A stretch of DNA of 64,000 bases from Eubacteriales bacterium (GTDB lineage Bacteria > Bacillota > Clostridia > Oscillospirales > CAG-272). A program made the translations under genes and the position numbers. The notes under the pieces are model-generated. The model worked only from the letters and a program-made list of their open reading frames with translations. It was not told where the DNA came from and made no database searches. This document shows, piece by piece, positions 9,385-53,901 of the stretch (the stretch's first letter is position 1; each line of letters opens with the position of its first letter). The stretch covers positions 67,399-131,398 of the forward strand of contig JAZQWL010000010.1 in NCBI GenBank assembly GCA_045632305.1. The letters are read 5' to 3'.

Positions 9385-10050
9385 ATGATAAATTACGTAA
9401 TCTTTGATATGGACGGCACGCTTCTTGATACGGAGAAGCTCTTCCGCCGTTCGTGGATAGAAATAAGCAACGAGTACGGCTTGAGCGACGGAGAGCGTTT
9501 TTACGAGCTTGTCGCAGGACGTCCTGCCGAGGTGTTAAAGCAAAGATTTGCGGAAACCTACGGAGAGGAAATAGACTACGATGAGTTTATTTCGGTAAGG
9601 AGAAAAAGATTCTCTTCCTTTATCGAGGAGAATGTTCCGCTCAAGAGGTATTGTATCGAGATCCTTGAATATTTGAAGGGGCAGGGTATAAAAATCGCCT
9701 TGGCTACCTCGACTACGTTTGATTTAGCAAAGAGAAACCTTGAATTTGCGGGGATATATAAATATTTCGATGCGATAGTTACGGGTGATGATGTAGAGAA
9801 TGGCAAGCCCGCGCCCGACATTTTTCTGCTTGCGGCGGAGAGGTTAGGCGCGAAGCATTCCGAGGCGGTGATTGTTGAGGACACGTATAACGGTCTTCGG
9901 GGCGCGTACGCCGCGGGAATTCGCGGTATTATGGTCATTGACGGTCAGCCGCCAAATGAAGAAACACACGCGATCACGGTCGCGGAGTGTGAAGATCTTA
10001 ATCAGGTTTTAAACTATATAAAAACACACAAAGGAGACGGAAGAAAATGA
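9385..10050 (+). CDS. HAD-superfamily hydrolase (beta-phosphoglucomutase-like subfamily IA)
   Basis: DMDGTLLDTE motif I, ATST motif II, K...EDT motif. The ORF track start 9313 overlaps tgt. ATG 9385 gives the canonical MINYVIFDMDGT N-terminus. Confidence 0.8.
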   Translation: MINYVIFDMDGTLLDTEKLFRRSWIEISNEYGLSDGERFYELVAGRPAEVLKQRFAETYGEEIDYDEFISVRRKRFSSFIEENVPLKRYCIEILEYLKGQGIKIALATSTTFDLAKRNLEFAGIYKYFDAIVTGDDVENGKPAPDIFLLAAERLGAKHSEAVIVEDTYNGLRGAYAAGIRGIMVIDGQPPNEETHAITVAECEDLNQVLNYIKTHKGDGRK

Positions 10051-11429: not shown

Positions 11430-11431
11430 TA

Positions 11432-12775
11432 ATGGATTTTTTGAAAATTCGTGATATAATCGTATCCGCGGCATCTGTTGCAGGTATCGAAAAATATGAA
11501 ATTTACTGCACTACAGAGGAAGAAATTTCCACAAAGACGTTGAAGCATGAGATAAGCGCGTTAAGCTCCGGTATGACGGGCGGCGTCGGTTTCCGTTGTA
11601 TCGTTGACGGTAAAATGGGCTATGCTTCCACGAACGCTCTTGATACAGACGAGCTTTGCGGTCTTGTTACAAGAGCGGCTGAGAACGCAAAGGTTATTGA
11701 AAATACTGACGAGGTATTCATTTTCGAGGGCTCCGAAGCTTATGCGAAAACAAGCGCGGGCGAGCCCGTAGTCGTTGATGCGGCAAAGCTCAAGGAGTGC
11801 GCTCTGAAGCTTCAGGAGGGACTTTATAACTACAGTGAAGCCGTTGTAGACGGTACACAGAGCGTATCTCTCTCATTCGTTTCCGAAATCTATCTTTACA
11901 ACTCCTACGGCCTTGAGCTTACAAACAAGGTTGGTATGTCGGGCTGCTACGCTTCGTCCGTTATCAGTGTTGACGGGGAAAAGCAGAGCGGATTTGAATT
12001 TGCTATGGGCATTGACGGGGATGAGGTTGAATCCCTTCCCGCAAAGGCGGTTGACGGAGCTATAGAGCGTCTCGGCGCGGGCTTCGTTGAATCGGGCAAG
12101 TACAACATCGTGCTCTCAGGCAAGCAGATGAGAACGATCCTCTCTGCATATTCCTCTTGCTTCTCCGCAAAGAACGCGCAGATGGGACTTTCCTTGCTCG
12201 CAGGCAAGGAGGGCGAGAAGATCGCTTCCGATATCGTAACTATTACCGACGATCCTATGCGCGAGGGCTGTCCCGTACAGACCGCGTTTGATGGAGAGGG
12301 CGTTGCAGCATATAAGAAGAACGTTGTAGAGAACGGCGTTTTAAAGACTCTCCTTTACGACCTTAAGACCGCAAAGAAGGCGGGCAGAACAACTACTGCA
12401 AACGGACAGAGAGGCGGATATGCTTCTCAGGTTCATATCGCTCCCTACAACTTCGCAATTGCCGCGGGCGAGAATACTCTTGACGAGCTTTTTGCGGCAG
12501 TTGGCAACGGTATTTACATTACCGAGCTTAAGGGTCTTCACGCGGGCGCAGACCCCGTTACGGGCGATTTCTCGATCGAAAGCGCGGGCTTTAAGATTGA
12601 AAATGGCAAGAAGGCGGGCGCAGTGAAGACGTTTACTATCGCGGGCAACTTCTTTACACTGCTCAAGAGCATTACAATGGTAGCTGACGAGATCGAATGG
12701 GGAATTCCCACAAGCTTTACGGTATTCGGCTCTCCCGCAGTTTTAGTAGAGGGAATCAGCGTAGCTGGTAAGTAA
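11432..12775 (+). CDS. pmbA: PmbA/TldE-family protease partner
   Basis: 447-aa TldD/PmbA-fold protein lacking the HExxxH site, 2 nt after tldD. Confidence 0.8.
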   Translation: MDFLKIRDIIVSAASVAGIEKYEIYCTTEEEISTKTLKHEISALSSGMTGGVGFRCIVDGKMGYASTNALDTDELCGLVTRAAENAKVIENTDEVFIFEGSEAYAKTSAGEPVVVDAAKLKECALKLQEGLYNYSEAVVDGTQSVSLSFVSEIYLYNSYGLELTNKVGMSGCYASSVISVDGEKQSGFEFAMGIDGDEVESLPAKAVDGAIERLGAGFVESGKYNIVLSGKQMRTILSAYSSCFSAKNAQMGLSLLAGKEGEKIASDIVTITDDPMREGCPVQTAFDGEGVAAYKKNVVENGVLKTLLYDLKTAKKAGRTTTANGQRGGYASQVHIAPYNFAIAAGENTLDELFAAVGNGIYITELKGLHAGADPVTGDFSIESAGFKIENGKKAGAVKTFTIAGNFFTLLKSITMVADEIEWGIPTSFTVFGSPAVLVEGISVAGK

Positions 12776-12795
12776 TTATATCTTATATCAAATCA

Positions 12796-12827
12796 AAGTG
12801 CGTACGAATTTCGTGCGCACTTTTTTG
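12796..12827 (+). terminator. Rho-independent terminator after pmbA
   Basis: AAAGTGCGTACGAA/TTCGTGCGCACTTT stem followed by TTTTTTG. Confidence 0.65.
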
Positions 12828-12919
12828 CATCTTACCCTCATTTTTCCACCACTTGCCAAAAAGGTATTTACAAAAATTCGACAAGATGCTATAATAATCT
12901 TGCAAGGTGAGGTGATCAC

Positions 12920-13372
12920 GTGAAGGTTAAAATTGAAATATCGCAGGACGCGTCCTGCGAGGTCATAATTAAATGCCGCGAGATAAACGATGAGGTATTG
13001 CATATTGAGTCGCTTCTGACACAGAGAGGAAGCGCGGAAATGCCGCTTTATATAGGCGACGATGAGTATTTTGTCCTAAAGAAAGACGTTTTGTTTTTTG
13101 AAACGACTCTCGGTAAGGTTTACGCGCATACAAGGGATCGAATGTATCTGTGTCAATATAAGCTGTTTGAGCTTGAACAGATGCTAGGCGTAAGCTTTTT
13201 GCGCATCTCTAAATCCACGGTCGTGAATATCATGGAGATAAGCTCTCTGCATAAGGACATTACGGGCAGCGGTGAGATCCGCTTCCGCAGAAGCGACAAG
13301 ACAACCTATTTTTCGCGCGGTTACGCGAAGATATTGAAGGATAGAATTGAAGAAATGAGGTTTGGAAAATGA
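12920..13372 (+). CDS. Stand-alone LytTR-domain transcriptional regulator
   Basis: 150 aa with a GTG start. LytTR pattern (FFETTLGKVYAHT...YKLFELEQML...FLRISKSTVVNI). Preceded by TTTACA-17-TATAAT. Confidence 0.8.
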   Translation: MKVKIEISQDASCEVIIKCREINDEVLHIESLLTQRGSAEMPLYIGDDEYFVLKKDVLFFETTLGKVYAHTRDRMYLCQYKLFELEQMLGVSFLRISKSTVVNIMEISSLHKDITGSGEIRFRRSDKTTYFSRGYAKILKDRIEEMRFGK

Positions 13373-14202
13373 AGATAACAGTTTGGGAAAGAAAACGCGT
13401 GAGCGCCTCAACTATCGTTTGGGGATTGTTTATAATAGCGATTGCGGTGTTCTGTATTTTGCAGGCGCTTGGAGTTTTGGGCGGATTTACAAGTATGTTC
13501 GGTGTGATCCCGATATGGAAATTGATACTTGGCGTCGGCTTGCTTGCGATAGCTGTGAGGGGTATCGTGAAATTAAGATTAGACGAGGTGTTCGTGCCGC
13601 TCGGATTTATCTTCATGCTTTTTGAAAAAAATATCGCGTTTGCTTCAGGACGTGAAGAAGACATAATCAACAATTGGCTTGTGTTCGGTTGCTGCTGTCT
13701 TTTGTCCATCGGATTTGGATTAATTCTCCCTAAGAGAAGAAAAAGATTCAAGAAAAAGACAAATTACAAGATCAAGAACGGTCATCTGAGAGTCGATATT
13801 GACGATGACGATAAGATCGAGGTCGAGGCAGAGGATAATGATTCCGATGAGTTCGACGATGACGAATTTGATGAGGATTTTGAAGATTACAAGAGTGATT
13901 TTGCGACTGCAAACACCCGTTATTTTGACGGAGCAACGTTCAAAAAGGGTTACGTTATGATCAATATGGGCGCGACCGACGTAATATTTGAAAATCCTGA
14001 AAAATATCAAGGTGGCGGCGTGCTCAAGGTTGAGTGTAAGATGGGTGCTCTGTCCGTTTCGGTGCCTGAAGAGTGGCGCGTTGTTACAAACATTGCCAAC
14101 AGAATGGGATCCGTTTCCGACAATCATAAAAACAATGACCCGAACGCTCCCGTTTTGACCATCGTCGGCGAGTGTGTAATGGGCGCAATCGATATTGAAT
14201 AA
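13369..14202 (+). CDS. Membrane protein partner of the LytTR regulator (LiaF-like C-terminal beta domain, acidic linker)
   Basis: 277 aa with a 4-bp overlap with the LytTR gene. About four N-terminal TM segments, a DIDDDDKIEVEAEDNDSDEFDDDEFDEDFEDY linker, and a C-terminal domain resembling LiaF/DUF2154-type domains. Confidence 0.55.
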   Translation: MKITVWERKRVSASTIVWGLFIIAIAVFCILQALGVLGGFTSMFGVIPIWKLILGVGLLAIAVRGIVKLRLDEVFVPLGFIFMLFEKNIAFASGREEDIINNWLVFGCCCLLSIGFGLILPKRRKRFKKKTNYKIKNGHLRVDIDDDDKIEVEAEDNDSDEFDDDEFDEDFEDYKSDFATANTRYFDGATFKKGYVMINMGATDVIFENPEKYQGGGVLKVECKMGALSVSVPEEWRVVTNIANRMGSVSDNHKNNDPNAPVLTIVGECVMGAIDIE

Positions 14203-14217
14203 GCATATTGAATAAAT

Positions 14218-14255
14218 AAAAAGCCACACTGAAAACGGTGTGGCTTCTATTTTTG
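14218..14255 (+). terminator. Rho-independent terminator
   Basis: AAGCCACAC-tgaaaac-GGTGTGGCTT followed by CTATTTTTG. Confidence 0.75.
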
Positions 14256-14461
14256 TGAAATGTTGACAAACTTTATTCAAATTGGAAATAAACGCCGTAT
14301 TGGATGGCGTTTCCTATTGACAACAAAGAGTTTTTTTAGTATAATAATAGGTGGATATTGTACAATAGGGGGAGTATAATCCCTTATGCTTGATATAATA
14401 TTTAAATTTGAGATTTAAAACAAAAAACACAGACACAAACAAAGGAGGTGTAAAGGAAAGA

Positions 14462-16009
14462 ATGGAAATGCCGGTAGTAGCATTTTTAGCTTCCTTGCTT
14501 GGCGCCGCGGTAGTATTCTTCTTCTTTGGATATCTTTCCAGAAAGAAGATCGGTGAGGCCAAGATCGGTTCTGCCGAGGCAGAAGCTAAAAAGATTGTAA
14601 CAGAAGCAAAGTCTGATGCGGAATCCGCTAAGAAGACCGCTCTCCTCGAGGCCAAGGAAGGCATCATGTCTCAGAGAAATGAATTTGAGCGTGAGATGAG
14701 ACAGAGACGCGCGGAAGTAAACAGACTTGAAGACAGAATTTCTAAAAAAGAAGAAACACTTGACAAGAAGACCGACGCACTCGAGAAGAAGAACGAGCAG
14801 CTCGACCGCAAGCTCAAGGAAAATGAGGTTGTAAAGGAGCAGATCGAAGGAGTTCTCTCCGAGCAGTTAAAGAAGCTCGAGCTTATTTCGGGAATTTCTG
14901 CCGAGGAGGCAAAAGACGAGCTTATCGAGAGAGTTGAGTCCGAGATGAAGCACGAGCTGGCTGAACGCCTTGACGCCCTTGAAACACAGTTCAAGGAGGA
15001 GGCAGACGAGAAGGCGAAGAACATTTTGTCTTTGGCTATTCAGAGATATGCATCCGATCACGTTTCCGAAGCAACTATTTCCTCTGTGGCATTGCCCAGT
15101 GAGGAAATGAAGGGTAGAATCATCGGACGTGAGGGTAGAAACATTCAGAAGATCGAAACGTTGACAGGCGTTGAGCTTATCATTGACGATACCCCTGAAA
15201 CTATTACATTGTCGGGATTTGATCCCGTAAGACGAGAGGTTGCGAGAATCGCCCTTGAGCGTCTTATTTCCGACGGTAGAATTCATCCTACGAGAATTGA
15301 GGAGATGGTTGAGAAGGCGCAGCGTGAGGTTGACGCATCCGTTAAGCAGGCGGGTGAGAGAGCTACATTTGAGGTTGGCATTCACGGTATTAACCCCGAG
15401 CTTGTAAGACTTCTCGGTCGTCTTAAGTACAGAACGAGCTACGGACAGAACGTGCTCAAGCACTCCATTGAGGTTGCATTCCTCGCCGGTATGATGGCTG
15501 AGGAGCTTGGCGTTGATGCGAATATCGCAAGACGCGCGGGTCTCCTCCACGATATCGGTAAAGCATTCCCGCACGACGTTGAGGGCTCTCACGTTGAGAT
15601 CGGCGTAAATGCGGCGAAGAAGTATAAGGAAAGCCGCGAGGTCGTTCATGCGATCGAAGCGCACCACAATGACGTTGAACCCAAGACCATTATCGCTATT
15701 CTTGTTCAGGCGGCTGACGCTATCAGCGCGGCAAGACCCGGCGCGAGACGCGAGGATATGGAAAACTACATCAAGCGTCTTGAAAAGCTCGAGGAGATCG
15801 CAAAGAGCTTTGACGGCGTAGATAAGGCGTTCGCTATTCAGGCAGGACGTGAAATTCGTGTTATGGTTAAGCCCGAGGAGGTTAACGATGACGCAATGAA
15901 GGTTGTCGCAAGAGAAATGGCGGCAAAGATCCAGTCTGAGATGAAGTATCCCGGTCAGATCAAGATCAATCTTATTCGTAAGAGTCGCGCTGTTGACTAC
16001 GCGAAGTAA
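14462..16009 (+). CDS. rny: Ribonuclease Y
   Basis: N-terminal TM helix, coiled-coil, KH domain ([12 protein letters not shown]) and HD domain (LLHDIGKA...HH). The ORF track starts at TTG 14408. ATG 14462 lies downstream of an AAAGGAGG RBS. Confidence 0.95.
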
Positions 16010-16085
16010 TATTATTTAGGTTCCGCTTCGGATTGATATATATTTATATATAGCTTAATTGACAGTATAATCGAAAATAATATAG

Positions 16086-16124
16086 AAAAGCCTCCGTTGA
16101 GTAGATCTCAACGGAGGCTTATTT
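16086..16124. terminator. Bidirectional terminator shared by rny (+) and the helicase gene (-)
   Basis: 13-bp perfect stem AGCCTCCGTTGAG/CTCAACGGAGGCT with T-runs on both strands. Confidence 0.8.
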
Positions 16125-18416
16125 TTATTTTATCTCCCCGAACAGCTCGCGGATCTTGTCCTCGGGCTCATCGGCGCGCAATTTATCGGTCGCGTAGGCG
16201 CGGCGCAGAAGGGATTGCGGTATATAGGGGTCGTACTTTTCAAATATGGGTATTTCGCCATTTTCAACCAGCTCGTGCGGGTTGATTCCGTATCTTTCAA
16301 CGTCCTGCATAAGTCGGGAGATAAGATAATCGGGGCTTGTTTTCTCCATTTTGAAGGTGATATAGTAGCAGCCCTCAAATTCTATGCCTGAAATATTGAA
16401 TTTCTGCGCATTATTCTTCAAATACTTGCGAAGCGTTCTGAAGGAGCGTGTGCCAAGCCACGGGAAGAGGCAATAGGAATAGCCGCCAAGATGCACGAGG
16501 GACTGCTCGAGCATACCCGTATTTCGGGCGCATCTGCGCGCGATCTCAAGGCGCTTTTGCGCGTTTTCCTTGAGGTATGGGTAAACCGTGTCCTCCATAA
16601 GCACCTGCTTCATACGCATAAGGATCTTGGTGTGTATCTCACCAAAGTCGCCGGGCCAGGAGATTTCCATTTTGCCGTCGACCTTTTTAACGTAAATGAG
16701 CTTTCTTTGTATATCAAGCTCCTCGACCTCCCAGACTCTGCCCGCCAGAGCAAAGCGGTCGCCGACGGGCGGGGGAGTGGTTATCGTGCCGATCTCGTCC
16801 GAGCCGCAACGAACTGTAAAGTCCTCACTGTCCTTGAAGACCGCGAAGAATTTGTAGCTGCGAAGAAGTCGCTCGCCCGCAAGACCGATTATAAGTCCGC
16901 CGATCTCGGTCAGTTGAATATAATCGCAGTTGAGCATGGAAAGAATAAGCTCCTTATAATCCTCTCGGCTTACGCTGAGGAAGGGCGGTAGCGTCAGGAC
17001 TCGTTCGGCAAGCGCGCGGGGAGAAAGCTCTCCGCTTGAAGCTAATACGCTGAGTGTCTGGTGGAAAAGCAAGCTCATTGGCATTTTCTTTATCTGTGGC
17101 GGTTCGATAAACCGTTCCTCGATATAGAGCTGAATTATTGCAATACCGCGGAGAAGCTCCCACGGAATAAGCTGGGGCAGGGGTGTGTTCGGAAGCGCTT
17201 CTTCCTCACGAAATACCATCATCATTTCGGGGGGCATATCACGTCTGCCCGAGCGACCGAGACGCTGCAGGAAGTTGGAAACCGTATTAGGCGCTTGCAT
17301 CTGGAGAACTCTTTGAAGCTTGCCGATATCAATTCCAAGCTCCATTGTAACCGTCGCGCAGGTGGTGATGTTTTCCTCATCGTCACGCATTTTCATTTCC
17401 GCTTCTTCACGCAGAGAGGCGGAAAGGTTGCCGTGGTGGATAAGGATTCGGGAATCGTTGTCTCCACGCGCTTTTGCTATCTGTCGCATCGTCGCGCAGA
17501 TATATTCGGTCTCTTCTCGGGAATTTGAGAAAACAATGGATTTTGCGTCCTTTACGCAATCGTATGCGTATTCGTACCCGGGATCTATTTTCGGCACGAT
17601 GAATTTCGGGTCGCAGCTTACGGGTATGTTCTCGCCTGCGATATTATCGCCTGCGGGAGCGGTGTCTGTGTCGGTATGTTCCGCTTTGTATTTTTCCGCC
17701 TCGGGATTTTCAATGTAAAAATGCTCAAGGCCAAGACGCCACCTGATCTTTTCGTTTCCGAATATGGGCGTGTCGACCGCTCTTCCTGTGTCCGCGGTGA
17801 GCCATTGCGCGGCAAGAGAAGGGTCGCCAATAGTGGCGGAAAGACCTATTCGTCTCGGGTGGTAGCCGATAAGACGGGCCAAACGGGATAGCTGGCAGAT
17901 TATCTGGTTGCCTCGGTCGGTACTCGTCAGGGTATGTATCTCATCAATGATTACAAAGCGGAGGTCGCCGAAAAGTCGCGGGATATCGTTCGAGCGGTTT
18001 ATTAGCATCGCTTCAAGCGATTCGGGAGTGATCTGCAAAATTCCGCGGGGCTTGTCGAGCAGCTTTTTCTTGTGGGATGCCGAAACGTCGCCGTGCCAAT
18101 GGGTGACTTCAACTCCCGACATATCGAGAACCTCGCTTATGCGCTCAAACTGATCGTTTATCAAGCTCTTGAGCGGCGCGATATAAAGCACACCGATGGA
18201 ATACGGGGGAGCTTCGTTTAGAAGGGAGAGAACGGGGAAAAATGCCGCCTCCGTCTTGCCGCTTGCGGTTGAAGAGGTGAGCAGGAGATTATTGTCGGTA
18301 TCAAAAATACTCCTCGCCGCCTCAATCTGAACTGCGCGAAGCGATTCCCATGAGTGCGCGTATATATATTCTCTTATATAGTCGGGAAAACGGTCAAAAA
18401 TCTTCTCGCTGTTCAT
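16125..18416 (-). CDS. sngC: Superfamily-2 DExH helicase, third gene of the TerB/ATPase/helicase cassette (Shango SngC-like)
   Basis: 763 aa. Motif I SSTASGKTEAA, motif II VIIDEIH, motif III GLSAT, motif VI QRLGRSGRR, plus a ~300-aa C-terminal domain of unknown function. AAAGGAG RBS 18 nt after the upstream stop. Symbol assigned by gene order and architecture from memory. Confidence 0.75.
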   Translation of the reverse strand: MNSEKIFDRFPDYIREYIYAHSWESLRAVQIEAARSIFDTDNNLLLTSSTASGKTEAAFFPVLSLLNEAPPYSIGVLYIAPLKSLINDQFERISEVLDMSGVEVTHWHGDVSASHKKKLLDKPRGILQITPESLEAMLINRSNDIPRLFGDLRFVIIDEIHTLTSTDRGNQIICQLSRLARLIGYHPRRIGLSATIGDPSLAAQWLTADTGRAVDTPIFGNEKIRWRLGLEHFYIENPEAEKYKAEHTDTDTAPAGDNIAGENIPVSCDPKFIVPKIDPGYEYAYDCVKDAKSIVFSNSREETEYICATMRQIAKARGDNDSRILIHHGNLSASLREEAEMKMRDDEENITTCATVTMELGIDIGKLQRVLQMQAPNTVSNFLQRLGRSGRRDMPPEMMMVFREEEALPNTPLPQLIPWELLRGIAIIQLYIEERFIEPPQIKKMPMSLLFHQTLSVLASSGELSPRALAERVLTLPPFLSVSREDYKELILSMLNCDYIQLTEIGGLIIGLAGERLLRSYKFFAVFKDSEDFTVRCGSDEIGTITTPPPVGDRFALAGRVWEVEELDIQRKLIYVKKVDGKMEISWPGDFGEIHTKILMRMKQVLMEDTVYPYLKENAQKRLEIARRCARNTGMLEQSLVHLGGYSYCLFPWLGTRSFRTLRKYLKNNAQKFNISGIEFEGCYYITFKMEKTSPDYLISRLMQDVERYGINPHELVENGEIPIFEKYDPYIPQSLLRRAYATDKLRADEPEDKIRELFGEIK

Positions 18417-18434
18417 ATTTTTCTCCTTTAAAGA

Positions 18435-19808
18435 TTAAAATTCGATATCTGCGGCGGTATACGTTCTGTTCTGTGCGGGAGCTTGGGGTGTGATCGGCTC
18501 GCCGTCACCTATGTCCGCATGCGAGAGCGTAACGCTTTTACCGACCACGTCGGAAAATTTCGCGTCGGGATTCTGCATCAGGATATTGAGCACCGTCATA
18601 TAGTCGCGAAGCATTTCACGGGGGGTTATCATACTGTCAGCGCCCGCGCGGGAAAGACAGATATTTAAAAATTCAACTCTTTCCTCTTCGGTTATGGTGC
18701 AATTCCAATTATAATACTGCGAGTAAAGCGCAGTTACACGGCAGATGAGCGCATAAAGCTCGTCGTCGGATAGACGCTTTAAGCGGATCACGGGGCCGAT
18801 AAGATTCTTGAATCCGTCAAGCGCGAAACGGCTGTCGCAAAGACGGGAGCGGAGGGCTTCGTAGCTGAAAAGTCCGCGTCGTGTGTCCTCAAGGAACTGA
18901 GGCGTGCCGCCAAAGATGATATCGAGCCCGGGAGAGCGTCCCTGAAGTGTATCGTTGAACATGGAAAGGATCTTTTCGTAGTTGTTCTCTCGGCTGATTC
19001 TGTGAGGGATCTTGTAGAGGTTTACGCATTCATCGATAAAAACTACAAGTCCGCGGTAGCCCATCTTCTTTGAGAGAGCCGCTAAGAGTTTTAGAAAGTC
19101 ATACCAGTTGTCATCGTCAATAATTACGGAAACCGAGAAGCCGAGAGCTTTTTTTGCCTCAGTCTTGGTCGCGTATTCACCGCGAAGCCAACGGATACAA
19201 GCGCTTGCGCGCTCTCTTGCCGCCTCTCCGTCCTCCATTGTCGCCTTGTAATATTCGATGATCACCTTGGAAAAGTCAAAGCCGCCAACGAGAAATTCAA
19301 GAGAGGAAAGCTCGCTTGAAACTCTCTTTGTAAGCTCCATGTAAAATACTTCACCGTCGGAGGAAATGCCACTCTGGAGAAGGTCGTTTTTTATCTGACC
19401 GATCCAGCGGGAAATGATCTTTGTGAGCGCGCCACCGTCGGGGGAGGATTTTGACGCTAAGTTCTTCATAAGCTCGCGATAGGTTGCGACGCCCGAGCCA
19501 CCCGTACCGTAAAGTCGACGCTCGGGGGAGAGATCGCAGTCTGCGGTCAAAAAGTCGCGATCGAGCGCGTAGCCGCGCACAAGCTGGATGAGAAAGCTCT
19601 TGCCGCTTCCGTATCGACCGATAAGGAAACGCATAGCGCCGCCGCCCTCGTTTACCTCCTCAAGGTCGGAAAGAAACGCGCTTATCTCGTCAGCTCGTCC
19701 GATTGCGATATAAGGCGCGCCCGATCTCGGTACTACGCCTGCGGATATGCTTGAGAGAAGAGAAGAGAGAATTCTTCTCGGAATTATTGGTGTTGTGTTG
19801 TCTGTCAT
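18435..19808 (-). CDS. sngB: DUF2791/BrxC-D-like P-loop ATPase (Shango SngB-like)
   Basis: 457 aa with Walker A GRYGSGKSF and Walker B VVFIDEC. Overall resemblance to the DUF2791 ATP-binding family. Its RBS TAAGGAGG overlaps the stop codon of the upstream TerB gene. Confidence 0.7.
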   Translation of the reverse strand: MTDNTTPIIPRRILSSLLSSISAGVVPRSGAPYIAIGRADEISAFLSDLEEVNEGGGAMRFLIGRYGSGKSFLIQLVRGYALDRDFLTADCDLSPERRLYGTGGSGVATYRELMKNLASKSSPDGGALTKIISRWIGQIKNDLLQSGISSDGEVFYMELTKRVSSELSSLEFLVGGFDFSKVIIEYYKATMEDGEAARERASACIRWLRGEYATKTEAKKALGFSVSVIIDDDNWYDFLKLLAALSKKMGYRGLVVFIDECVNLYKIPHRISRENNYEKILSMFNDTLQGRSPGLDIIFGGTPQFLEDTRRGLFSYEALRSRLCDSRFALDGFKNLIGPVIRLKRLSDDELYALICRVTALYSQYYNWNCTITEEERVEFLNICLSRAGADSMITPREMLRDYMTVLNILMQNPDAKFSDVVGKSVTLSHADIGDGEPITPQAPAQNRTYTAADIEF

Positions 19809-19819
19809 ATCTGTCCTCC

Positions 19820-21667
19820 TTATATGAGGTCTGTGTAATCTTCAATAACCGTGTATTTTTCGCCGTCGAAATCAAGAATAATGTCACCGATGATATTCAC
19901 GGCAAGCTCGTTTATAATATCCGCAAGTCCGTCGAGCGTCATGCCGTGTGATCTTGCGTAGCTTTTTTGTTCCTGAGGTGAACCGCTTTTGCAAATAAGC
20001 AAAAATTCATGATGCTCGCCCCACGAGGGTGAGTTGAGAGTTAAGAGTGAAGAGTTAAGAGTTGAGGTGGATTTTTGTCCAAGACAAAAATCTTCATTTG
20101 ATTTTAACTCTTCATTCTGCATTCTGCACTCTGCACTTGCATTTAACTCTGCACTCTGCACTCTGCACTCTGCACTTGCATTTAACTCTGCACTCTGCAT
20201 TCTGCACTTTGCACTTGCATTTAACTCTGCACTCTGCACTCTGCACTCTGCACTTGCATTAAACTTTGCACTCTGCATTCTGCACTCTGCACTTGCATTT
20301 AACTCTGCACTCTGCATTCTGCACTCTGCACTTTCAGCAAATGCCTCGGTAAGCTTTTTTGTGGTTGCCCATGAGCGCGCCTCGATTGCCTTTGCGTTTG
20401 AAAGGGAAAGCTGCGTCTTAGGTATATCGTAAAGGTGGCTGTATTTTTCCTCAAGCTTTTGTTCTGCTTTTTGCTTTTCGCTTGCTTTTGCGGATGCAAA
20501 TTCGTCGGATACGGAGGCAAAATAACCGTCAATCACATCGGTGATCTTAAGCGGAAGCTCGCCCACCGCAAGGGATGTTCGTATGCCGAGAAGCGCGCGG
20601 AGCTTGTTTTCCGCGTAGCGTATTGCGTCGGTTACAACTCCCGCGATGCATTTTACGGGGAAGTAGCTTACAAGGATTCTTGTGTTTGGCGCGCAGAATT
20701 CGATACGCCCGTCAAAAAGCTTTCTGTCGGTGAGCTTCGTGGAAAAAATTCCCGAGGCGTTATTGATTATTTCACCGTAAGAAGCGTCATTTATAAAGCA
20801 CGCGTTGAGCGCGGCGGGAATGTGTGTATCGAACGCTGCCTTTTTTTCGTCGGTATAGAATTTGGATTTTTTGTAATCGTAGATTGAGATATGCTCAATT
20901 GCGATCGGAGCGTAGATGTGTCTGTTTGACTCCGAAAGCCCCAAGAAGAATTCGTCTGCGGAGTGATCCGTCATGAAGGTGTGAAGCACGTCGCGTATTT
21001 CTTCGATCGGGCATTTGAGCTTGTGAATAAGGCAAAAATCCGAAATAATTCTCGCGATATATATTTTACCTACCACGTTATCAAAGCAGGTTAGAGCGAT
21101 TTTTACAAGGTCTGTAAGACATCTGTGAAGATCCTCGCCCTCGCCCGCGGTAACAAGCTCCTGAATATAGAGCTTGATATATGAAATATCGGTTTTAATA
21201 AATTCGCCGTTCCTTACGTTTTCGCGCCACCAGAGGTAGTACGAAAGCTGTGCGCGTGTCATGGAGGAATATCTCGGGGAATGGGAGTAGAAGCTGACGT
21301 AGCTGCAGGGCGTACCTTTTCGTTCAAGCAACGCCGCGCGTTCGCGCATGAAGAGGGCGCTCGGCTCGAAAATATTTTTGTTTTTATCCTTGGTCGTGAT
21401 CTTGACCTTGTTTATAAAAATATTGTCGGGGGTATATTCGAGAATTGTATCGGGGGCTAAAGCTTCGGGCTTTCTGTCGGGAATCTTTACGGATGCGCTG
21501 ACAGATCCGCCACCCGTTCCCGATTCGATAAGTACACCCTCGGGAGTCGGTTGTTTGTGTATCTGGTAGGAGGGCGCGGGGCGGGAATTACCCTTATTTG
21601 CGGACAGATCCCAAAAATCGTTGCCGCCAATATCGTTGCGAGCGTAATATTTACCCGAATCTGACAT
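19820..21667 (-). CDS. sngA: TerB-N / TerB-C domain protein with internal 13-aa repeat linker (Shango SngA-like)
   Basis: 615 aa. TerB-N-like core (SPRYSSMTRAQLSYYLWWRENVRNGEFIKTDISYIKLYIQELV). Six SAECRMQSAELNA-type repeats. A TerB-C-like tail (GMTLDGLADIINELAVNIIGDIILDFDG). Confidence 0.7.
   Translation of the reverse strand: MSDSGKYYARNDIGGNDFWDLSANKGNSRPAPSYQIHKQPTPEGVLIESGTGGGSVSASVKIPDRKPEALAPDTILEYTPDNIFINKVKITTKDKNKNIFEPSALFMRERAALLERKGTPCSYVSFYSHSPRYSSMTRAQLSYYLWWRENVRNGEFIKTDISYIKLYIQELVTAGEGEDLHRCLTDLVKIALTCFDNVVGKIYIARIISDFCLIHKLKCPIEEIRDVLHTFMTDHSADEFFLGLSESNRHIYAPIAIEHISIYDYKKSKFYTDEKKAAFDTHIPAALNACFINDASYGEIINNASGIFSTKLTDRKLFDGRIEFCAPNTRILVSYFPVKCIAGVVTDAIRYAENKLRALLGIRTSLAVGELPLKITDVIDGYFASVSDEFASAKASEKQKAEQKLEEKYSHLYDIPKTQLSLSNAKAIEARSWATTKKLTEAFAESAECRMQSAELNASAECRMQSAKFNASAECRVQSAELNASAKCRMQSAELNASAECRVQSAELNASAECRMQNEELKSNEDFCLGQKSTSTLNSSLLTLNSPSWGEHHEFLLICKSGSPQEQKSYARSHGMTLDGLADIINELAVNIIGDIILDFDGEKYTVIEDYTDLI
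20104..20337. repeat. 6 x 39-bp in-frame tandem repeat, each unit built from TGCA(C/T)TC heptamers
   Basis: Units start at 20104, 20143, 20182, 20221, 20260 and 20299. The consensus on the + strand is TTAACTC TGCACTC TGCACTC TGCACTC TGCACTT GCAT. Units 2 and 4 are identical. Confidence 0.95.
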
Positions 21668-21704
21668 TTTTATCCCTCCTTGTCCGTCTTTTTCTTAATA
21701 TATA

Positions 21705-21733
21705 ATTATAACATTTTTTTTTGCTTTTGTCAA
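21705..21733 (-). promoter_or_regulatory. Consensus sigma-A promoter of the TerB/ATPase/helicase operon
   Basis: On the minus strand: TTGACA (21733-21728), 17 nt, TATAAT (21710-21705). This lies about 40 nt upstream of the AAGGAGGG RBS and ATG. Confidence 0.7.
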
Positions 21734-21744
21734 GTTATATGAGC

Positions 21745-21773
21745 TTGACAGAAAATCTCTTTTATTGTATAAT
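21745..21773 (+). promoter_or_regulatory. Consensus sigma-A promoter of the divergent small ORF
   Basis: TTGACA (21745-21750), 17 nt, TATAAT (21768-21773). Back to back with the minus-strand promoter. Confidence 0.7.
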
Positions 21774-21800
21774 TAAATCAGAAAAAAGCGAGGTGTTTTT

Positions 21801-22085
21801 ATGATAAAGCAGTATTTTGAAGTTAAAATTGATGAAGAAACATACAGAATCGAATATTCCTTCAATAAATTTCTCGGTAAAACCACGTTTGCCGTGAACG
21901 ATGACGAGTTTTCCACGCGCGGTCACGCCTTCGGCATCGGTGTCAAGAGAAGTGAAATGATAATGATCGGCATGACGCAGGGCGCGCTCTCCATTGATAA
22001 GAAGGGAAGAGCGAAGCTCATCTGTCGCGACGCGGACAGTGTGCGTGAGGTTGAGGGGTTTGAAGAATTCGAGTCGGAGGAATAA
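21801..22085 (+). CDS. Hypothetical 94-aa protein with acidic tail
   Basis: ATG preceded by GCGAGGTG. It has its own consensus promoter and a terminator. I recognise no family. Confidence 0.5.
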   Translation: MIKQYFEVKIDEETYRIEYSFNKFLGKTTFAVNDDEFSTRGHAFGIGVKRSEMIMIGMTQGALSIDKKGRAKLICRDADSVREVEGFEEFESEE

Positions 22086-22118
22086 AAAAGAGCAGACACA
22101 TCGTGTCTGCTCTTTTTG
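22084..22118. terminator. Bidirectional terminator
   Basis: GAGCAGACAC-atc-GTGTCTGCTC stem flanked by an A-run and a T-run. Confidence 0.8.
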
Positions 22119-22119
22119 T

Positions 22120-22806
22120 TTATTCTCCGTCGGAGAATCTGAAGCCCGCGGTTTCGGTAATGGGGAGCGCAAACACAACGGGATGCGCGCTTTCGGCATA
22201 CGTGTAGGAGGCAATCGCCTTCATAATGGCGGATTTTGTTTCCTTGTGGCTTACGATGTATATAATTTCCTTTTCGTCGGAAATTGCCATGCCGAAGAAT
22301 TTGTCAGTTCCCGCCTTGGCGGTACCCTTTGCCTTGACGATAGTGCCGCCCGTAGCACCCGCCTCGCGAGCCGCGGTCATTATTTCATTTGTGTGTCCTT
22401 TAGCGCAGATCGCAATTATAAGCTCCATTGTATTAGTCCTTTCAGTGATTTCTTTTTTCTGTACTCCCTCGTCGCATACACCTTCTGTGACGATGTTATC
22501 AAGCACCCGTCTTGACGCGATCGCGGAGAGTGGGATCGCCATGGAGATTCCGCGGTCGGGAAGGTAAATGCGCATATCGTGAGCAAGTCCGTAAATAAGC
22601 TCGCGCATCTTGCTCTCGGTAACGATGGACTGCATCATTACCTTTTCGCTCTTTTCAAGCCCAAATGTTTTGAGCTTGCTCTCGCGGGTAGAACCCTCGC
22701 AGAGCGTTGAATATATAGGATAAGTGTGGCGGGAGAGGAAGAAATCCGAGAACTCCTCGGCCTCACTTTTCTTTGTTACCGTTATTAAAAGAAAGATGTT
22801 TTCCAT
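22120..22806 (-). CDS. Tandem P-II-like (GlnB-superfamily) signal protein
   Basis: 228 aa. The C-terminal half (MELIIAICAKGHTNEIMTAAREAGATGGTIVKAKGT) is a clear P-II-like fold pattern and the N-terminal half is a degenerate copy. Its start lies 1 nt downstream of the stop of the DUF1538 gene, which is upstream in the operon. Confidence 0.65.
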   Translation of the reverse strand: MENIFLLITVTKKSEAEEFSDFFLSRHTYPIYSTLCEGSTRESKLKTFGLEKSEKVMMQSIVTESKMRELIYGLAHDMRIYLPDRGISMAIPLSAIASRRVLDNIVTEGVCDEGVQKKEITERTNTMELIIAICAKGHTNEIMTAAREAGATGGTIVKAKGTAKAGTDKFFGMAISDEKEIIYIVSHKETKSAIMKAIASYTYAESAHPVVFALPITETAGFRFSDGE

Positions 22807-22807
22807 A

Positions 22808-24400
22808 TCAGGATAAAACTCCGCTTAAATCAAATTCAATAATTTCTACGTCGTATTCGCTTGAAGCTTCAGTATTATCAAGCTCAATGATTTCATCGTC
22901 AACCTCGGACGACGTAACAGCGGCTGTCTGCTTCGCCTTGAATACGATACCTAAAATCTGGATGGATATGGTGGGCGTCATCGCAACGAGCGCGATCGTT
23001 CCGAACGCGTCCATCATGATCTTGTCGCTTGTAGCTCCCATAGCAGTCGAAATGCCTATGGACAAGGGCAAAAGGAAGGTTGCCGCCATAACGCCCGATG
23101 CAACGCCGCCCGCGTCGAACGCGATGGACGTAAAGATTGACGGGCAGAAGAACGTTAGGATCACGGCAATTACGTATCCTATGACGAGCATCGGCATGAT
23201 TGAGATTCCCGTAAGAGCGCGGAGCATTGAAAGTCCCGCGGCGAGAGATACGCCGATCGCCATCATAAGAGGGAGGATCTTTTTTGGTATTGTGCCTGCG
23301 GTCGCATCCTCGACCTGCTTTTCAAGTACACCTACGGCGGGCTCGGCGTATGTCATACAGAAGCCGATGATCATGCCGACGGGGATTATCATATATTTGA
23401 GCTCACCGATGGCAAGCGTGCTTCCGATATAGCTTCCCACGGGCATAAAGCCGACGTTTACTCCTACGAGGAAAAGCACCATGCCGACAAAGGTATACAC
23501 CGCGCCGACAGTTATTTGAGTTTTTTCCGCCTTGGTGATTTTTGTGGTCGCGAACTGATATATTACAAAGAAAATAATGATCGGGATAAGTCCCATAAGC
23601 ACGTCTTTGATGACGTGAGGAGCTTTCTTGAGGAATGAAAGCGCCATGCTCTGTGAGTTTTCAAACGCAGGAAGCTCGTGCGGAGTGTATGCAACGCTGT
23701 CAAGACCACCCATAAGACCGAGTATAAGAATCGCGAGTATCGGACCTATGGAACAAATTGCCATAAGACCGAAGCTTGAGTCGTCATCACCGTTCTGCGC
23801 ACTGATCGCGGCAATACCCGCGCCGATGGACATTACAAAGGGGACCGACATCGCTCCCGTGGTAACTCCGCCTGCGTCAAAGGCGATGGCTAAAAATCTC
23901 GGGTTTTTGAAATACGTAAGTAATGCGAGCGCAATAACGAGACCGTATCCGACAAGAAGCAAATATTTGATCTTTACGCCGAAAATAATTCTCATAACGG
24001 CAATAACAAGGCAGATGCCAAGACCGATAGCTACAGCTAAAACGAATATCAGCTTTTGGTTGCCCGTATATCCTGCGAGAACGTGAAGATCGGGCTCGGA
24101 AATAGTGATAAGTACGCCCACAATAAGGGAAATGATTGCGATTATGGGGATGTTGCGGGATTTTGTAAGGTTAGAACCGATATGCGTACCCATTTTCGTC
24201 ATGGACATATCTGCGCCAAGCGAGAAAAGGCCTAGACCTACGGTCAAAAGGCACGTGCCGACGAGAAATGCTATGAAAATGTCATTCGGCAGTGGGCATA
24301 CCGTAAAGGACATGAGAAGCACGATGAGTGCTATCGGCAAAACCGAAAAGCATGCTTCCTTGACCTTCTCAATTATGGTTTCGTATCTGTATTTTTTCAT
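22808..24400 (-). CDS. DUF1538-family integral membrane protein (duplicated/fused)
   Basis: 530-aa polytopic protein with two similar halves (FDAGGVTTGAMSVPF and FDAGGVASGVMAATF) and an acidic C-tail. Confidence 0.65.
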   Translation of the reverse strand: MKKYRYETIIEKVKEACFSVLPIALIVLLMSFTVCPLPNDIFIAFLVGTCLLTVGLGLFSLGADMSMTKMGTHIGSNLTKSRNIPIIAIISLIVGVLITISEPDLHVLAGYTGNQKLIFVLAVAIGLGICLVIAVMRIIFGVKIKYLLLVGYGLVIALALLTYFKNPRFLAIAFDAGGVTTGAMSVPFVMSIGAGIAAISAQNGDDDSSFGLMAICSIGPILAILILGLMGGLDSVAYTPHELPAFENSQSMALSFLKKAPHVIKDVLMGLIPIIIFFVIYQFATTKITKAEKTQITVGAVYTFVGMVLFLVGVNVGFMPVGSYIGSTLAIGELKYMIIPVGMIIGFCMTYAEPAVGVLEKQVEDATAGTIPKKILPLMMAIGVSLAAGLSMLRALTGISIMPMLVIGYVIAVILTFFCPSIFTSIAFDAGGVASGVMAATFLLPLSIGISTAMGATSDKIMMDAFGTIALVAMTPTISIQILGIVFKAKQTAAVTSSEVDDEIIELDNTEASSEYDVEIIEFDLSGVLS

Positions 24401-29150: not shown

Positions 29151-29388
29151 TATTATATATTATATTATACAATTGTGAATAAATATAAAACAAAATCAAA
29201 AATATTGAGAAAATTACGGAAAATTTTGCATTTTCAACAAAATTGACTAACAACGTTTACGGGACGGGCGGGCTTTGGAGGTGAAAAACGCCACATTTGC
29301 GTTGAAAAAACGGTGTTTTTGTGCAAGATATACAAGAATATCGATTAAAAACACAGAAAAATTCTACAAATACGAGCTAACGTATGTA

Positions 29389-51398: not shown

Positions 51399-53030
<1,632 letters not shown>

Positions 53031-53130
53031 TCTGCGCGTAGCGCAATCAGTTATAAGTTATGAGATATGAGTTATGAGATGCTTCGCATCGCTGATAACG
53101 CTTGCGTAGCAAACTCTAAACATTTGGCGC
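53031..53130 (+). repeat. Short copy of the GTTATGA/mini-hairpin repeat family between the groEL stop and its terminator
   Basis: GCGC-gta-GCGC, GTTATAA, GTTATGA x2, GATGC-ttc-GCATC, GATAAC, TTGC-gta-GCAA, AACTCTAAAC. It is collinear with the minus-strand reading of 46260-46400. Confidence 0.7.
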
Positions 53131-53155: not shown

Positions 53156-53187
53156 AAAAACCTCTCGCATAAGCGAGAGGTTTTTTG
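53156..53187. terminator. Bidirectional terminator (groEL / tetR-family gene)
   Basis: CCTCTCGC-ataa-GCGAGAGG flanked by an A5 run and a T6 run. Confidence 0.8.
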
Positions 53188-53190
53188 TTA

Positions 53191-53785: not shown

Positions 53786-53901
53786 TTATAAATAAGAATC
53801 TGTTGATTTTGTATTTCGGATTGAATATAATTATATTGAACAAGTAGTTCGGTAACTATATTGTATCAAAAATTTTCAGTTTTGTCAACACGGAGGAAAC
53901 G

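What the first reader, a model, noticed from the sequence alone, without database searches (positions are those of the whole stretch)
20104..20337. Six near-identical in-frame 39-bp tandem repeats made of TGCA(C/T)TC heptamers inside the TerB-protein linker
Seen in sequence: units start at 20104, 20143, 20182, 20221, 20260 and 20299. Units 2 and 4 are identical, and the others differ by 1-5 nt. Each 39-mer is itself four to five TGCACTC-type heptamers plus TTAACTC and GCAT. On the coding (minus) strand the repeats encode Cys-containing 13-aa units (SAECRMQSAELNA / SAECRVQSAELNA / SAKCRMQSAELNA) placed between the TerB-N and TerB-C regions. A related low-complexity stretch (LNSSLLTLNS, GAGTTAAGAGT-type DNA) lies just downstream in the protein. 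Inference: the high DNA identity suggests recent expansion or ongoing gene conversion. Slippage by one 39-bp unit keeps the frame and would change the spacer length between the two TerB modules. Slippage by one 7-bp subunit would frameshift sngA and could switch the coupled operon off. This could be a contingency or phase-variable locus, or a spacer ruler. The regularly spaced cysteines could also matter for metal or redox chemistry, given that TerB is a metal-associated fold.
Basis: partly seen in the sequence, partly recalled or inferred. Interest (0 to 1): 0.7.

Follow-up and report, generated by a model that had tools for sequence, protein, structure and literature searches.

The report
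Intergenic-type repeat element inside SngA linker
The six 39-bp repeats are real, but they are one amplified arm of a hairpin-plus-7-bp-satellite element that normally lies between genes and is here read in frame as a floppy, length-variable linker of a Shango anti-phage protein; this is an evolutionary curiosity, not a demonstrated switch.

Summary
There are 5.9 in-frame copies of a 39-bp unit (window 20099-20332, minus strand) in the linker of SngA, the first gene of a complete Shango operon (sngABC).

The array is not a stand-alone minisatellite. It is the expanded right arm of an imperfect palindrome. The left arm is GAGTTRA heptamers (20031-20063). The centre is a perfect 10-bp hairpin (20069-20093). 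The right arm is TGCAYTC heptamers.

This architecture defines a multi-copy, REP/REPIN-like family in gut Clostridia MAGs:
- A covariance model found 33 copies in 305 kb.
- 28 of the 29 copies outside SngA are not in a long ORF.
- 4 of 7 stem pairs show compensatory changes.

The GARTGCA satellite has no stop codon in any of the six frames. It occurs in many phyla, mostly intergenic and occasionally in frame (MetH, PriA, PheT).

A 98.3%-identical operon from another sample has 1 unit instead of 6. Orthologues have unrelated linkers of 22-133 aa. AlphaFold gives pLDDT of about 30 across the repeats.

The best reading is a tolerated, near-neutral in-frame repeat element with variable copy number. 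Phase variation is mechanically possible, because a ±7 bp change truncates the protein before TerB-C, but no evidence supports it. The metal, redox and ruler ideas are not supported.

The parts
19820..21667 (-). sngA: 615-aa TerB-N/TerB-C protein that hosts the repeat
   Evidence: ORF. Pfam TerB_N 1.9e-12 and TerB_C 3.7e-08. PADLOC SngA 6.3e-35.
18435..19808 (-). sngB: BrxC/BrxD-type ATPase, starting 11 nt after the sngA stop
   Evidence: Pfam BrxC_BrxD 1.7e-152. PADLOC SngB 3.1e-159.
16125..18416 (-). sngC: DEAD/DEAH helicase
   Evidence: Pfam DEAD and Helicase_C. PADLOC SngC 1.3e-236.
20024..20338 (-). Variable linker of SngA (aa 444-548) between the conserved ...KLTEAF helix and WGEHHEF, the start of TerB-C. 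It is made entirely of repeat-element DNA.
   Evidence: Anchor-based linker table over 59 proteins. AlphaFold2 pLDDT below 50 for residues 457-546.
20099..20332 (-). Six in-frame 39-bp units (13 aa each). Each unit is about four GARTGCA heptamers plus AGTTAAATGCA. This is the amplified right arm of the element.
   Evidence: There is 1 unit in L001 and 2 units in the P0003/P0024 alleles.
20064..20100 (.). Hairpin core of the element: GGATTTTTGTC-caa-GACAAAAATC with a perfect 10-bp stem at 20069-20093, plus the flanking TTGAGG / TTCATT motifs
   Evidence: Inverted-repeat search. Covariance model R1 scores 35.4 bits (E 2e-5) on the + strand and 29.4 bits on the - strand. DNA fold z = -4.0. Terminator-like on the + strand.
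20031..20063 (+). Left arm: GAGTTRA heptamers x4.7, read on the minus strand as STLNSSLLTLNS. The TTCACTC variant removes the in-frame TAA that a pure TTAACTC run would give.
   Evidence: Six-frame translation of pure heptamers.
20031..20131 (.). Imperfect palindrome: 49-nt arms, 71% complementary, 3 nt between them. This is the ancestral, unexpanded element.
   Evidence: I1. It is 79% identical over 107 nt to an intergenic element in L032.

Best explanation
The 39-bp array is the tandemly amplified arm of a REP/REPIN-like palindromic element. The element consists of 7-bp satellite arms around an A/T-rich hairpin and lies in frame inside the intrinsically variable, probably disordered linker of the Shango protein SngA.

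Shown:
- The palindromic anatomy.
- Membership of a multi-copy, mostly intergenic hairpin-plus-heptamer family in gut Clostridia.
- The GARTGCA satellite has no stop codon in any of the six frames, so it can be read through.
- Copy number differs (1 versus 6) between 98%-identical operons.

Inferred:
- An element of this family became part of the linker-coding DNA in an ancestor of this SngA clade.
- It persisted because the linker tolerates almost any sequence, provided the frame stays open.
- Its arm expands and contracts by slipped-strand or unequal recombination. The step is 39 bp, since units that are not a multiple of 3 would be removed by selection.
- The protein-level effect is a longer or shorter flexible tether between the SngA body and TerB-C. 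It has little or no dedicated function.
For: Anatomy:
- Arms at 20031-20079 and 20083-20131 are 71% complementary around a perfect 10-bp hairpin.
- The 116-nt core folds at -19.5 kcal/mol against -9.5±2.5 for shuffles. None of 200 shuffles folds as well.

Family:
- L032 carries an intergenic copy, lying between a gene start and the terminator of the next gene, that is 79% identical over 107 nt.
- In 22 copies the hairpin has a 7-bp consensus stem, and 4 of the 7 pairs show compensatory changes.
- Model R1 finds 33 distinct copies in 305 kb of Clostridia loci. Of the 29 copies outside SngA, 28 are not inside a long ORF.
- The window's copy scores 35.4 bits.

Satellite:
- GARTGCA x3.5 occurs in more than 120 genome stretches from many phyla.
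- It typically sits just after stop codons, often as inverted arms.
- Only 20 of 134 clusters have a frame open for at least 100 codons on both sides.
- It is stop-free in all six frames.

Polymorphism:
- L001 is 98.2-98.5% identical over the operon and has 1 unit versus 6.
- P0003 and P0024 have 2 units. P0024 has the whole element duplicated.

Lack of constraint:
- Linkers are 22-133 aa and unconserved, and several close orthologues have no repeat.
- pLDDT is about 30.
- All four variant sites among units 0-4 are non-synonymous. Three are G-to-A changes of the kind also seen among intergenic copies.

Precedent:
- Heptameric repeats are over-represented in bacterial intergenic DNA (PMC4692102, PMC4679880).
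- Rickettsia palindromic elements insert in frame into ORFs (PMC10969869).
Against: - Only 64 kb of this genome is available. It holds just one strong copy of the hairpin, the SngA copy itself, plus a weak intergenic candidate at 29214-29249 (E 0.11) and one other heptamer satellite (53049-53080). Multi-copy status in this genome is therefore not shown.
- The copy-number comparison rests on a single near-identical relative from a short-read metagenome assembly.
- The hairpin is still perfect in the window, L001 and L124, although it lies in coding DNA. This could mean recent origin, or selection on DNA/RNA structure.
- Recurrent heptamer and REP content in many alleles of this one linker could reflect selection for variability rather than mere tolerance.
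- No experiment bears on function.
Confidence: 0.65

Rival explanations
1. Contingency (phase-variable) locus. Slippage of one 7-bp subunit frameshifts sngA, removes TerB-C and switches the Shango system off and on in a subpopulation.
For: - 34 heptamer-periodic units are present.
- Every simulated ±7 bp change gives a stop at aa 453-520, upstream of TerB-C.
- sngB starts 11 nt after the sngA stop, so coupling is plausible.
- Phase-variable defence genes, such as restriction-modification systems, are established knowledge. Repeat-driven phase variation is reviewed in PMC4692102.
Against: - Perfect heptamer runs are only about 4 copies long and are interrupted every 39 bp by AGTTAAATGCA.
- All SngA alleles retrieved are in frame, although a protein database is biased towards intact ORFs.
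- The observed polymorphism is in 39-bp steps.
- The same satellite is mostly intergenic, and it is in frame in MetH, PriA and PheT, where switching off would be deleterious.
Confidence: 0.12
2. Adaptive hypervariable tether. Selection favours rapid change of linker length or sequence, to tune the reach of TerB-C or to escape phage-encoded inhibitors. The repeat element is retained because it supplies that mutability.
For: - Ten alleles of the close clade carry different mixes of heptamers, GTAG-tagged GC-rich hairpins and the A/T hairpin at the same linker position. Linker lengths in that clade range from 34 to 133 aa.
- Another allele lineage varies by a different 12-aa duplication (P0059 versus P0010).
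- Copy number is 1 versus 6 at 98% identity.
Against: - The pattern is equally expected from neutral turnover in an unconstrained linker.
- Several close orthologues have ordinary acidic/Pro-rich linkers with no repeat.
- No signal ties linker state to phage exposure.
- The NJ tree is star-like, so gain and loss cannot be ordered.
Confidence: 0.12
3. Structured functional module: a coiled-coil or helical ruler, or a Cys-based metal/redox site.
For: - A regular 13-aa unit with one Cys each.
- The heptamer encodes a 7-aa period (VQSAECR) that superficially resembles a heptad.
- Helix 422-458 runs into the first unit.
Against: - pLDDT is about 30 with no secondary structure for residues 457-546 when the alignment is used.
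- The single-sequence model is unreliable, with pLDDT 41 and arbitrary beta strands.
- Most homologue linkers have no Cys, and the near-identical allele has one unit.
- The Cys follows automatically from the TGC in the DNA satellite.
Confidence: 0.04
4. Assembly artefact: the copy number was inflated in the window or collapsed in L001.
For: Near-identical 39-mers are hard to assemble from short reads. L001 is a MEGAHIT k141 contig.
Against: - Units 0, 1, 3 and 5 each carry private variants that fix their order.
- A k=141 contig cannot join both unique flanks across a single 39-bp unit unless such molecules exist (inference from de Bruijn assembly).
- Independent assemblies show 1, 2 and 2+1 units.
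Confidence: 0.03

Closest known systems
Rickettsia palindromic elements (RPEs) and other intragenic MITE/ERIC/BOX insertions
   Same: A short palindromic repeat family found both between genes and in frame inside ORFs. It adds a peptide segment without destroying the host protein (PMC10969869, citing Ogata et al. 2000).
   Different: - This element has 7-bp satellite arms around a small hairpin, rather than a roughly 150-bp unit with a conserved peptide.
- One arm has amplified as a 39-bp higher-order repeat.
- Mobility and target duplications were not shown.
- The host is a Clostridia defence gene.
REP / REPIN elements, including GTAG-tagged REPs
   Same: - Small stem-loops, often in inverted pairs. 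They are multi-copy and intergenic, with stems kept by compensatory change (abstracts of PMC3116915 and PMC3733652).
- GTAG-tagged GC-rich hairpins occur in frame in the related linkers of L002, L003 and L124.
   Different: - The window's own hairpin is preceded by GAAG, not GTAG.
- No RAYT transposase was looked for or found.
- The flanking heptamer arrays are not a described REP feature.
Heptanucleotide repeats of bacteria (STRR of cyanobacteria, TAACTGA of Beggiatoaceae, GGGAATC of Xanthomonas)
   Same: Tandem 7-bp units that are over-represented, mostly intergenic, sometimes in inverted arrangement, and phylogenetically scattered (PMC4679880, PMC4692102).
   Different: - The unit is GARTGCA / GAGTTAA.
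- The exact strings were not found in the paper library.
- Here the repeat is inside a coding region. TAACTGA carries stop codons when read in its forward orientation and is therefore limited to ORF ends in that orientation (PMC4679880).
In-frame VNTRs and repeat-based contingency loci
   Same: Tandem units whose length is a multiple of 3, with copy number differing between close strains.
   Different: No surface or antigenic role and no demonstrated switching. The repeat derives from an intergenic-type element rather than arising within the gene.
Shango (SngABC) defence system
   Same: The three-gene operon of a TerB-like protein, an ATPase and a helicase (10.1101/2022.11.11.516204, 10.1101/2022.05.11.491447).
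   Different: Repeat-element-derived linkers are confined to one Clostridia clade of SngA. I did not find them mentioned in the passages of the Shango literature that I read.

Membership tests
Shango defence system (SngABC) | SngA with TerB-N and TerB-C domains | tested here: met
   Pfam TerB_N 47.8 bits and TerB_C 34.1 bits, both above the curated cut-offs. PADLOC SngA 6.3e-35 over aa 105-613.
Shango defence system (SngABC) | An adjacent BrxC/D-type ATPase (SngB) and a DEAD/DEAH helicase (SngC) on the same strand | tested here: met
   PADLOC SngB 3.1e-159 and SngC 1.3e-236. The ORFs at 18435-19808 and 16125-18416 are on the minus strand.
Shango defence system (SngABC) | Protects against phage | not testable with these tools
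   Shown only for the Pseudomonas and E. coli systems (10.1101/2022.11.11.516204).
In-frame VNTR | Tandem unit length is a multiple of 3 and the ORF is maintained | tested here: met
   39-bp units and a continuous 615-aa ORF.
In-frame VNTR | Copy number differs between closely related genomes | tested here: met
   1 unit in L001 versus 6 in the window at 98.2-98.5% identity. 2 units in L003 and L124.
Phase-variable contingency locus | Repeat-length changes that shift the frame are observed among cells or strains | tested here: not met
   No frameshifted allele among the retrieved alleles. Within-population variation could not be tested because no reads were available.
Phase-variable contingency locus | A long uninterrupted run of a unit that is not a multiple of 3 | tested here: inconclusive
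   Heptamer periodicity spans 226 bp at 77% match, but perfect runs are only about 4 units long.
REP/REPIN- or RPE-like palindromic repeat family | A palindromic stem-loop conserved by compensatory substitutions | tested here: met
   Perfect 10-bp stem. Across 22 copies, 4 of 7 consensus pairs show double changes that keep pairing.
REP/REPIN- or RPE-like palindromic repeat family | Many copies per genome, mainly intergenic | tested here: inconclusive
   Met in other Clostridia MAGs: 33 copies in 305 kb, up to 5 per 8 kb, and 28 of 29 non-SngA copies not in a long ORF. In this genome only 64 kb is visible, with one strong copy and one weak copy.
REP/REPIN- or RPE-like palindromic repeat family | The same family is found in frame within ORFs (the RPE hallmark) | tested here: met
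   SngA copies in the window, L001 and L124 (x2). The heptamer palindrome is also in frame in the MetH linker of L007.
REP/REPIN- or RPE-like palindromic repeat family | GTAG tag and an associated RAYT transposase (for GTAG-REPs) | tested here: not met
   The window hairpin is preceded by GAAG. GTAG-tagged hairpins occur only in the related linkers of L002, L003 and L124. RAYT was not searched for.
Bacterial heptanucleotide repeats | Tandem 7-bp units | tested here: met
   TRF period 7, 34.4 copies. GAGTTAA x4.7.
Bacterial heptanucleotide repeats | Predominantly intergenic location | tested here: not met
   This copy is coding. The family as a whole is mostly non-coding.

The most novel reading that the evidence does not exclude
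GARTGCA-type palindromic heptamer satellites, alone or with REP-like hairpins, may form a cross-phylum class of 'coding-compatible' repeat DNA.

- They are free of stop codons in all six frames.
- This could let them enter and persist in interdomain linkers and loops of real proteins. Examples are SngA here, and MetH, PriA, PheT, a squalene-hopene-cyclase-like protein and a P-type ATPase elsewhere.
- They would thereby create new disordered segments.
- In this SngA clade the linker may have become a preferred landing or expansion site, making a defence protein hypervariable in length.
Probability: 0.3. Interest if true: 0.6.

Novelty: new member of a known kind. Interest (0 to 1): 0.35.

Why it matters
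- It shows that a protein linker in an anti-phage system can be built entirely from DNA of a kind that normally lies between genes. The 'Cys-containing 13-aa repeats' are a by-product of a DNA satellite, not a designed motif.
- It gives a natural series of linker lengths (1, 2 and 6 units; 34-133 aa in the clade) for asking whether the TerB-C tether length matters in Shango.
- It defines, with a covariance model, a hairpin-plus-heptamer repeat family in gut Clostridia, and flags a widespread stop-free heptamer satellite. Both generate spurious ORFs and odd 'AECRVQS / LHSAFCI' peptides in databases.
- The ±7 bp route to a truncated SngA is a cheap, testable hypothesis for on/off heterogeneity of a defence system.

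Tried and rejected
- The exact 615-aa protein is not on record in the assembly index.
- A JGI metagenome scan with an allele-specific 28-mer found nothing. A protein-pattern scan with the clade alignment found no relative.
- A second protein search, with the C-terminal 209 aa, was meant to fish out further copy-number alleles. It returned only spurious ORFs translated from heptamer arrays, plus one unrelated linker variant.
- Single-sequence AlphaFold2 of the linker gave pLDDT 41 with arbitrary beta strands, so I discarded it.
- Rfam gave only sub-threshold miRNA-precursor-like hits, which amount to a generic long hairpin.
- The terminator scan found the hairpin on the + strand, but the count was not above shuffles.
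- A survey of all 7-periodic tracts in the fetched loci was dominated by the selected motif and was uninformative.
- My first 'longest ORF' test for coding context was confounded, because the satellite is open in all frames. I replaced it with the test requiring at least 100 open codons on both sides.
- An NJ tree could not order gains and losses because it is star-like.
- I considered whether SngA arose here by fusion of two genes across an intergenic element. I rejected this because distant SngA proteins are single chains with ordinary linkers.
Full report
OBSERVATION

The repeat is real.
- TRF reports 20103-20333, period 39, 5.9 copies, 93% matches, no indels, score 413. It also finds a nested 7-bp periodicity of 34 copies.
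- A 14-mer of two heptamers matches 22 times in the window against 0.31 expected. Of these, 21 matches lie in the array.
- On the minus strand the units are in frame within a 615-aa ORF (19820-21667). They encode 13-aa units at residues 446-523.
- The ORF is SngA (Pfam TerB_N and TerB_C; PADLOC 6e-35). SngB (BrxC/BrxD ATPase, 3e-159) and SngC (helicase, 1e-236) follow it, so this is a complete Shango operon. Shango is described in 10.1101/2022.11.11.516204 and 10.1101/2022.05.11.491447.

ANATOMY BEYOND THE GIVEN COORDINATES

The second low-complexity stretch (GAGTTAA x4.7, 20031-20063) is on the opposite strand relative to the GAGTGCA heptamers of the array.
- Together they form an imperfect palindrome. 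The arms are 20031-20079 and 20083-20131: 49 nt, 71% complementary, 3 nt apart. The centre is a perfect 10-bp hairpin, GGATTTTTGTC-caa-GACAAAAATC.
- The 116-nt core folds as a two-tier hairpin at -19.5 kcal/mol, against -9.5±2.5 for shuffles (z = -4.0, none of 200 as stable).
- The 39-bp array is therefore the right arm of this palindrome, amplified as a higher-order unit of about four heptamers plus AGTTAAATGCA.

RELATIVES OF THE GENE

Fifty-eight SngA homologues were found.
- The closest, P0001, is encoded on L001. Its operon is 98.2-98.5% identical to the window over 5.9 kb. The only large difference is a 195-bp indel, which leaves exactly one unit where the window has six.
- L001's single unit could be produced from a window-like array by one unequal crossover in the shared AGAGTTAAA motif plus one SNP. 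The array could equally have grown from a single unit. The direction is undetermined (inference).
- The P0003 and P0024 alleles (about 65% identity) have two 13-aa units. P0024 carries the whole heptamer-hairpin-heptamer element twice, with a GC-rich GTAG-tagged hairpin between the copies.
- Other close alleles carry heptamers only (L125, L126), or heptamers plus up to four GTAG-tagged hairpins read as VGDGVLGVP / VGAIHESPA (L002).
- Several close orthologues and all distant ones have ordinary acidic/Pro/Thr-rich linkers.
- Between the conserved anchors (..TEAF and WG..), the linker is 22-67 aa in 42 distant homologues and 34-133 aa in the close clade. There is no sequence conservation.
- AlphaFold2 with a 47-sequence alignment models the body and TerB-C confidently (pLDDT above 90). 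It gives pLDDT of about 30 and no secondary structure for residues 457-546.

RELATIVES OF THE DNA ELEMENT

They come from Acidobacteriota, Planctomycetota, Gemmatimonadota, Chloroflexota, Verrucomicrobiota, Bacteroidota, Cyanobacteria, Proteobacteria and many gut Clostridia.
- The arrays typically begin a few bases after a stop codon or terminator. They are often followed by an inverted array.
- Only 20 of 134 clusters have any frame open for at least 100 codons on both sides.
- One intergenic element in a Eubacteriales MAG (L032, 5979-6092) lies between a gene start and the terminator of the next gene. It is 79% identical over 107 nt to window 20037-20138.
- In Clostridia loci the array end (..GCAGAGTT) is regularly followed by TTAAGG, then a hairpin of the form xATTTTY-stem-RAAAATx. 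Often a second inverted hairpin follows, then CCTTAA and the inverted array. This is a REPIN-like layout.
- Over 22 copies the consensus stem has 7 pairs, 4 of them with compensatory double changes.
- A covariance model built from 21 copies (R1) scores the window's hairpin at 35.4 bits. It finds 33 distinct copies in 305 kb of Clostridia and SngA loci. Of the 29 copies outside SngA, 28 are not in a long ORF.
- One intergenic copy (L107, 65-104) has the same stem sequence as the window.

WHY THE ELEMENT CAN BE READ THROUGH

- Pure GAGTGCA or GAATGCA arrays have no stop codon in any of the six frames. They translate to ECRVQSA or ECRMQNA in every forward frame. This explains the regular Cys.
- Pure GAGTTAA/TTAACTC arrays have stops in all frames. 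In SngA the run reads TTAACTC-TTCACTC-TTAACTC, which avoids the in-frame TAA.
- The same satellite is in frame in bona fide proteins elsewhere. It sits in the MetH linker between the homocysteine and pterin domains (a complete palindrome), between the PriA 3'BD and helicase domains, and within PheT, a squalene-hopene-cyclase-like protein and a P-type ATPase.

MECHANISM

The best-supported reading is that a member of an intergenic palindromic repeat family became part of the linker-coding DNA of an ancestral SngA of this clade.
- It was tolerated because the linker is unconstrained.
- It now evolves as repeat DNA. It gains and loses heptamers and 39-bp units by slippage or unequal exchange, acquires further REP-like hairpins, or decays by point mutation.
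- All four variant sites among units 0-4 are non-synonymous. Three are G-to-A changes of the type seen among intergenic copies. So variation tracks the DNA family rather than protein constraint. The numbers are small.

RIVAL EXPLANATIONS

- Phase variation is mechanically possible, since every simulated ±7 bp change stops translation at aa 453-520. However, perfect runs are short, the observed polymorphism is in 39-bp steps, and no frameshifted allele was retrieved.
- An adaptive hypervariable tether cannot be excluded. The recurrence of repeat DNA at this one position in many alleles is notable.
- A structured or metal-binding module is not supported.
- An assembly artefact is unlikely, given unit-specific variants and independent assemblies with 1 and 2 units.

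COMPARISON WITH WHAT IS KNOWN

- Heptameric repeats are known to be over-represented and mostly intergenic in bacteria (PMC4692102, PMC4679880).
- REP/REPIN elements are well described (PMC3116915, PMC3733652).
- In-frame insertion of palindromic elements is classic for Rickettsia RPEs (PMC10969869).
- The exact heptamer strings were not found in the paper library, and Rfam has no matching family.
- I therefore file the finding as a new member of known kinds: an in-frame VNTR derived from a REP-like, heptamer-armed element. It is not a new mechanism.

LIMITS

- Only one near-identical comparator exists.
- No reads are available.
- Only 64 kb of the host genome is visible.
- Both JGI metagenome scans found nothing.
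- The host is probably a gut member of Oscillospirales/Eubacteriales. This rests on synteny with JAZMCG010000014.1 and on the taxa that carry the element, but the host was not identified directly.

Noticed in passing
window 53040-53110: A second heptamer satellite (AGTTATA/AGTTATG/AGATATG x4.3) followed by a small hairpin (GATGCttcGCATC). It lies in the intergenic region right after a Cpn60/GroEL gene (51405-53030) and before an intrinsic terminator at about 53157-53188.
   Followed up: partly
L004-L123 (genome-contig hits): The identical GARTGCA heptamer satellite occurs in at least ten phyla. It usually sits just after stop codons and often as inverted arms around a spacer. Why one 7-mer is so widespread is unexplained.
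   Followed up: partly
L007 2382-2460; L025; L106; L066; L096: The heptamer satellite is in frame in real proteins confirmed by Pfam. These are the MetH interdomain linker (a complete palindrome, MQNAECRMQN...NSEFCILNSAL), PriA between the 3'BD and the helicase, the PheT core domain, a squalene-hopene-cyclase-like protein and a P-type ATPase.
   Followed up: partly
L002 1542-1667 and 1737-1762; L003 1950-1973; L124 761-786: GC-rich GTAG-tagged REP-like hairpins (GTAGGGGACGnCGTCCTCGGCGTCCC, GTAGGGGCGATTCACGAATCGCCC) are read in frame as VGDGVLGVP / VGAIHESPA inside SngA linkers of related alleles, with up to four in one linker. L020 shows similar hairpins next to a heptamer array in a stretch that looks non-coding.
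   Followed up: partly
P0015 (672 aa, ENA contig 3317 bp): The N-terminal MutS domains (PF01624, PF05188) are fused to the C-terminal two-thirds of a P0003-like SngA. This is either an assembly chimera or a real rearrangement.
   Followed up: no
P0059 versus P0010: A different SngA lineage varies in the same linker by an extra 12-aa PQAPAEPVA-type unit. Tandem duplication in this linker is therefore not limited to the heptamer element.
   Followed up: no
window 21801-22085 (+): A 94-aa ORF lies divergent from sngA with no Pfam hit. It is conserved in the same position upstream of sngA in L001, L125, L126 and L127 and could be a regulator or a fourth component.
   Followed up: partly
window 10047-24400 versus L125: The Shango operon sits in a conserved housekeeping neighbourhood in both the window and JAZMCG010000014.1: DUF1538 and a P-II-like gene on one side, and RNase Y, LytTR and TldD/PmbA on the other. 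This is not a typical defence island.
   Followed up: partly
L001 5886-6890: In the 98%-identical strain, the DNA immediately after the sngC stop has no match anywhere in the 64-kb window. The operon's 3' boundary is a breakpoint between otherwise near-identical strains.
   Followed up: partly
L149, L142 (IMG/VR contigs): 27 viral contigs carry the GARTGCA array. One has 9 arrays in 15 kb and another has 6 in 12 kb. These are either misclassified cellular DNA or phages rich in the satellite, which would be a possible vehicle for its spread.
   Followed up: no
window 29214-29249 (+): A weak match (18.9 bits, E 0.11) of the hairpin model lies in an A/T-rich intergenic region next to a TATTATA x2 heptamer. 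It may be a degenerate second copy of the family in this genome.
   Followed up: partly
window 54775-54807: CACCATCAC x3.7 (a 9-bp repeat, His-rich if translated) lies at the end of overlapping ORFs at 53866-54807 and 53902-54810. I did not examine it.
   Followed up: no
window 20034-20432 (+): A 132-aa ORF runs antisense to sngA across the array. It is explained by the stop-free satellite and is not a gene. Database proteins P0060-P0066 are similar artefacts (AECRVQS-type peptides).
   Followed up: yes
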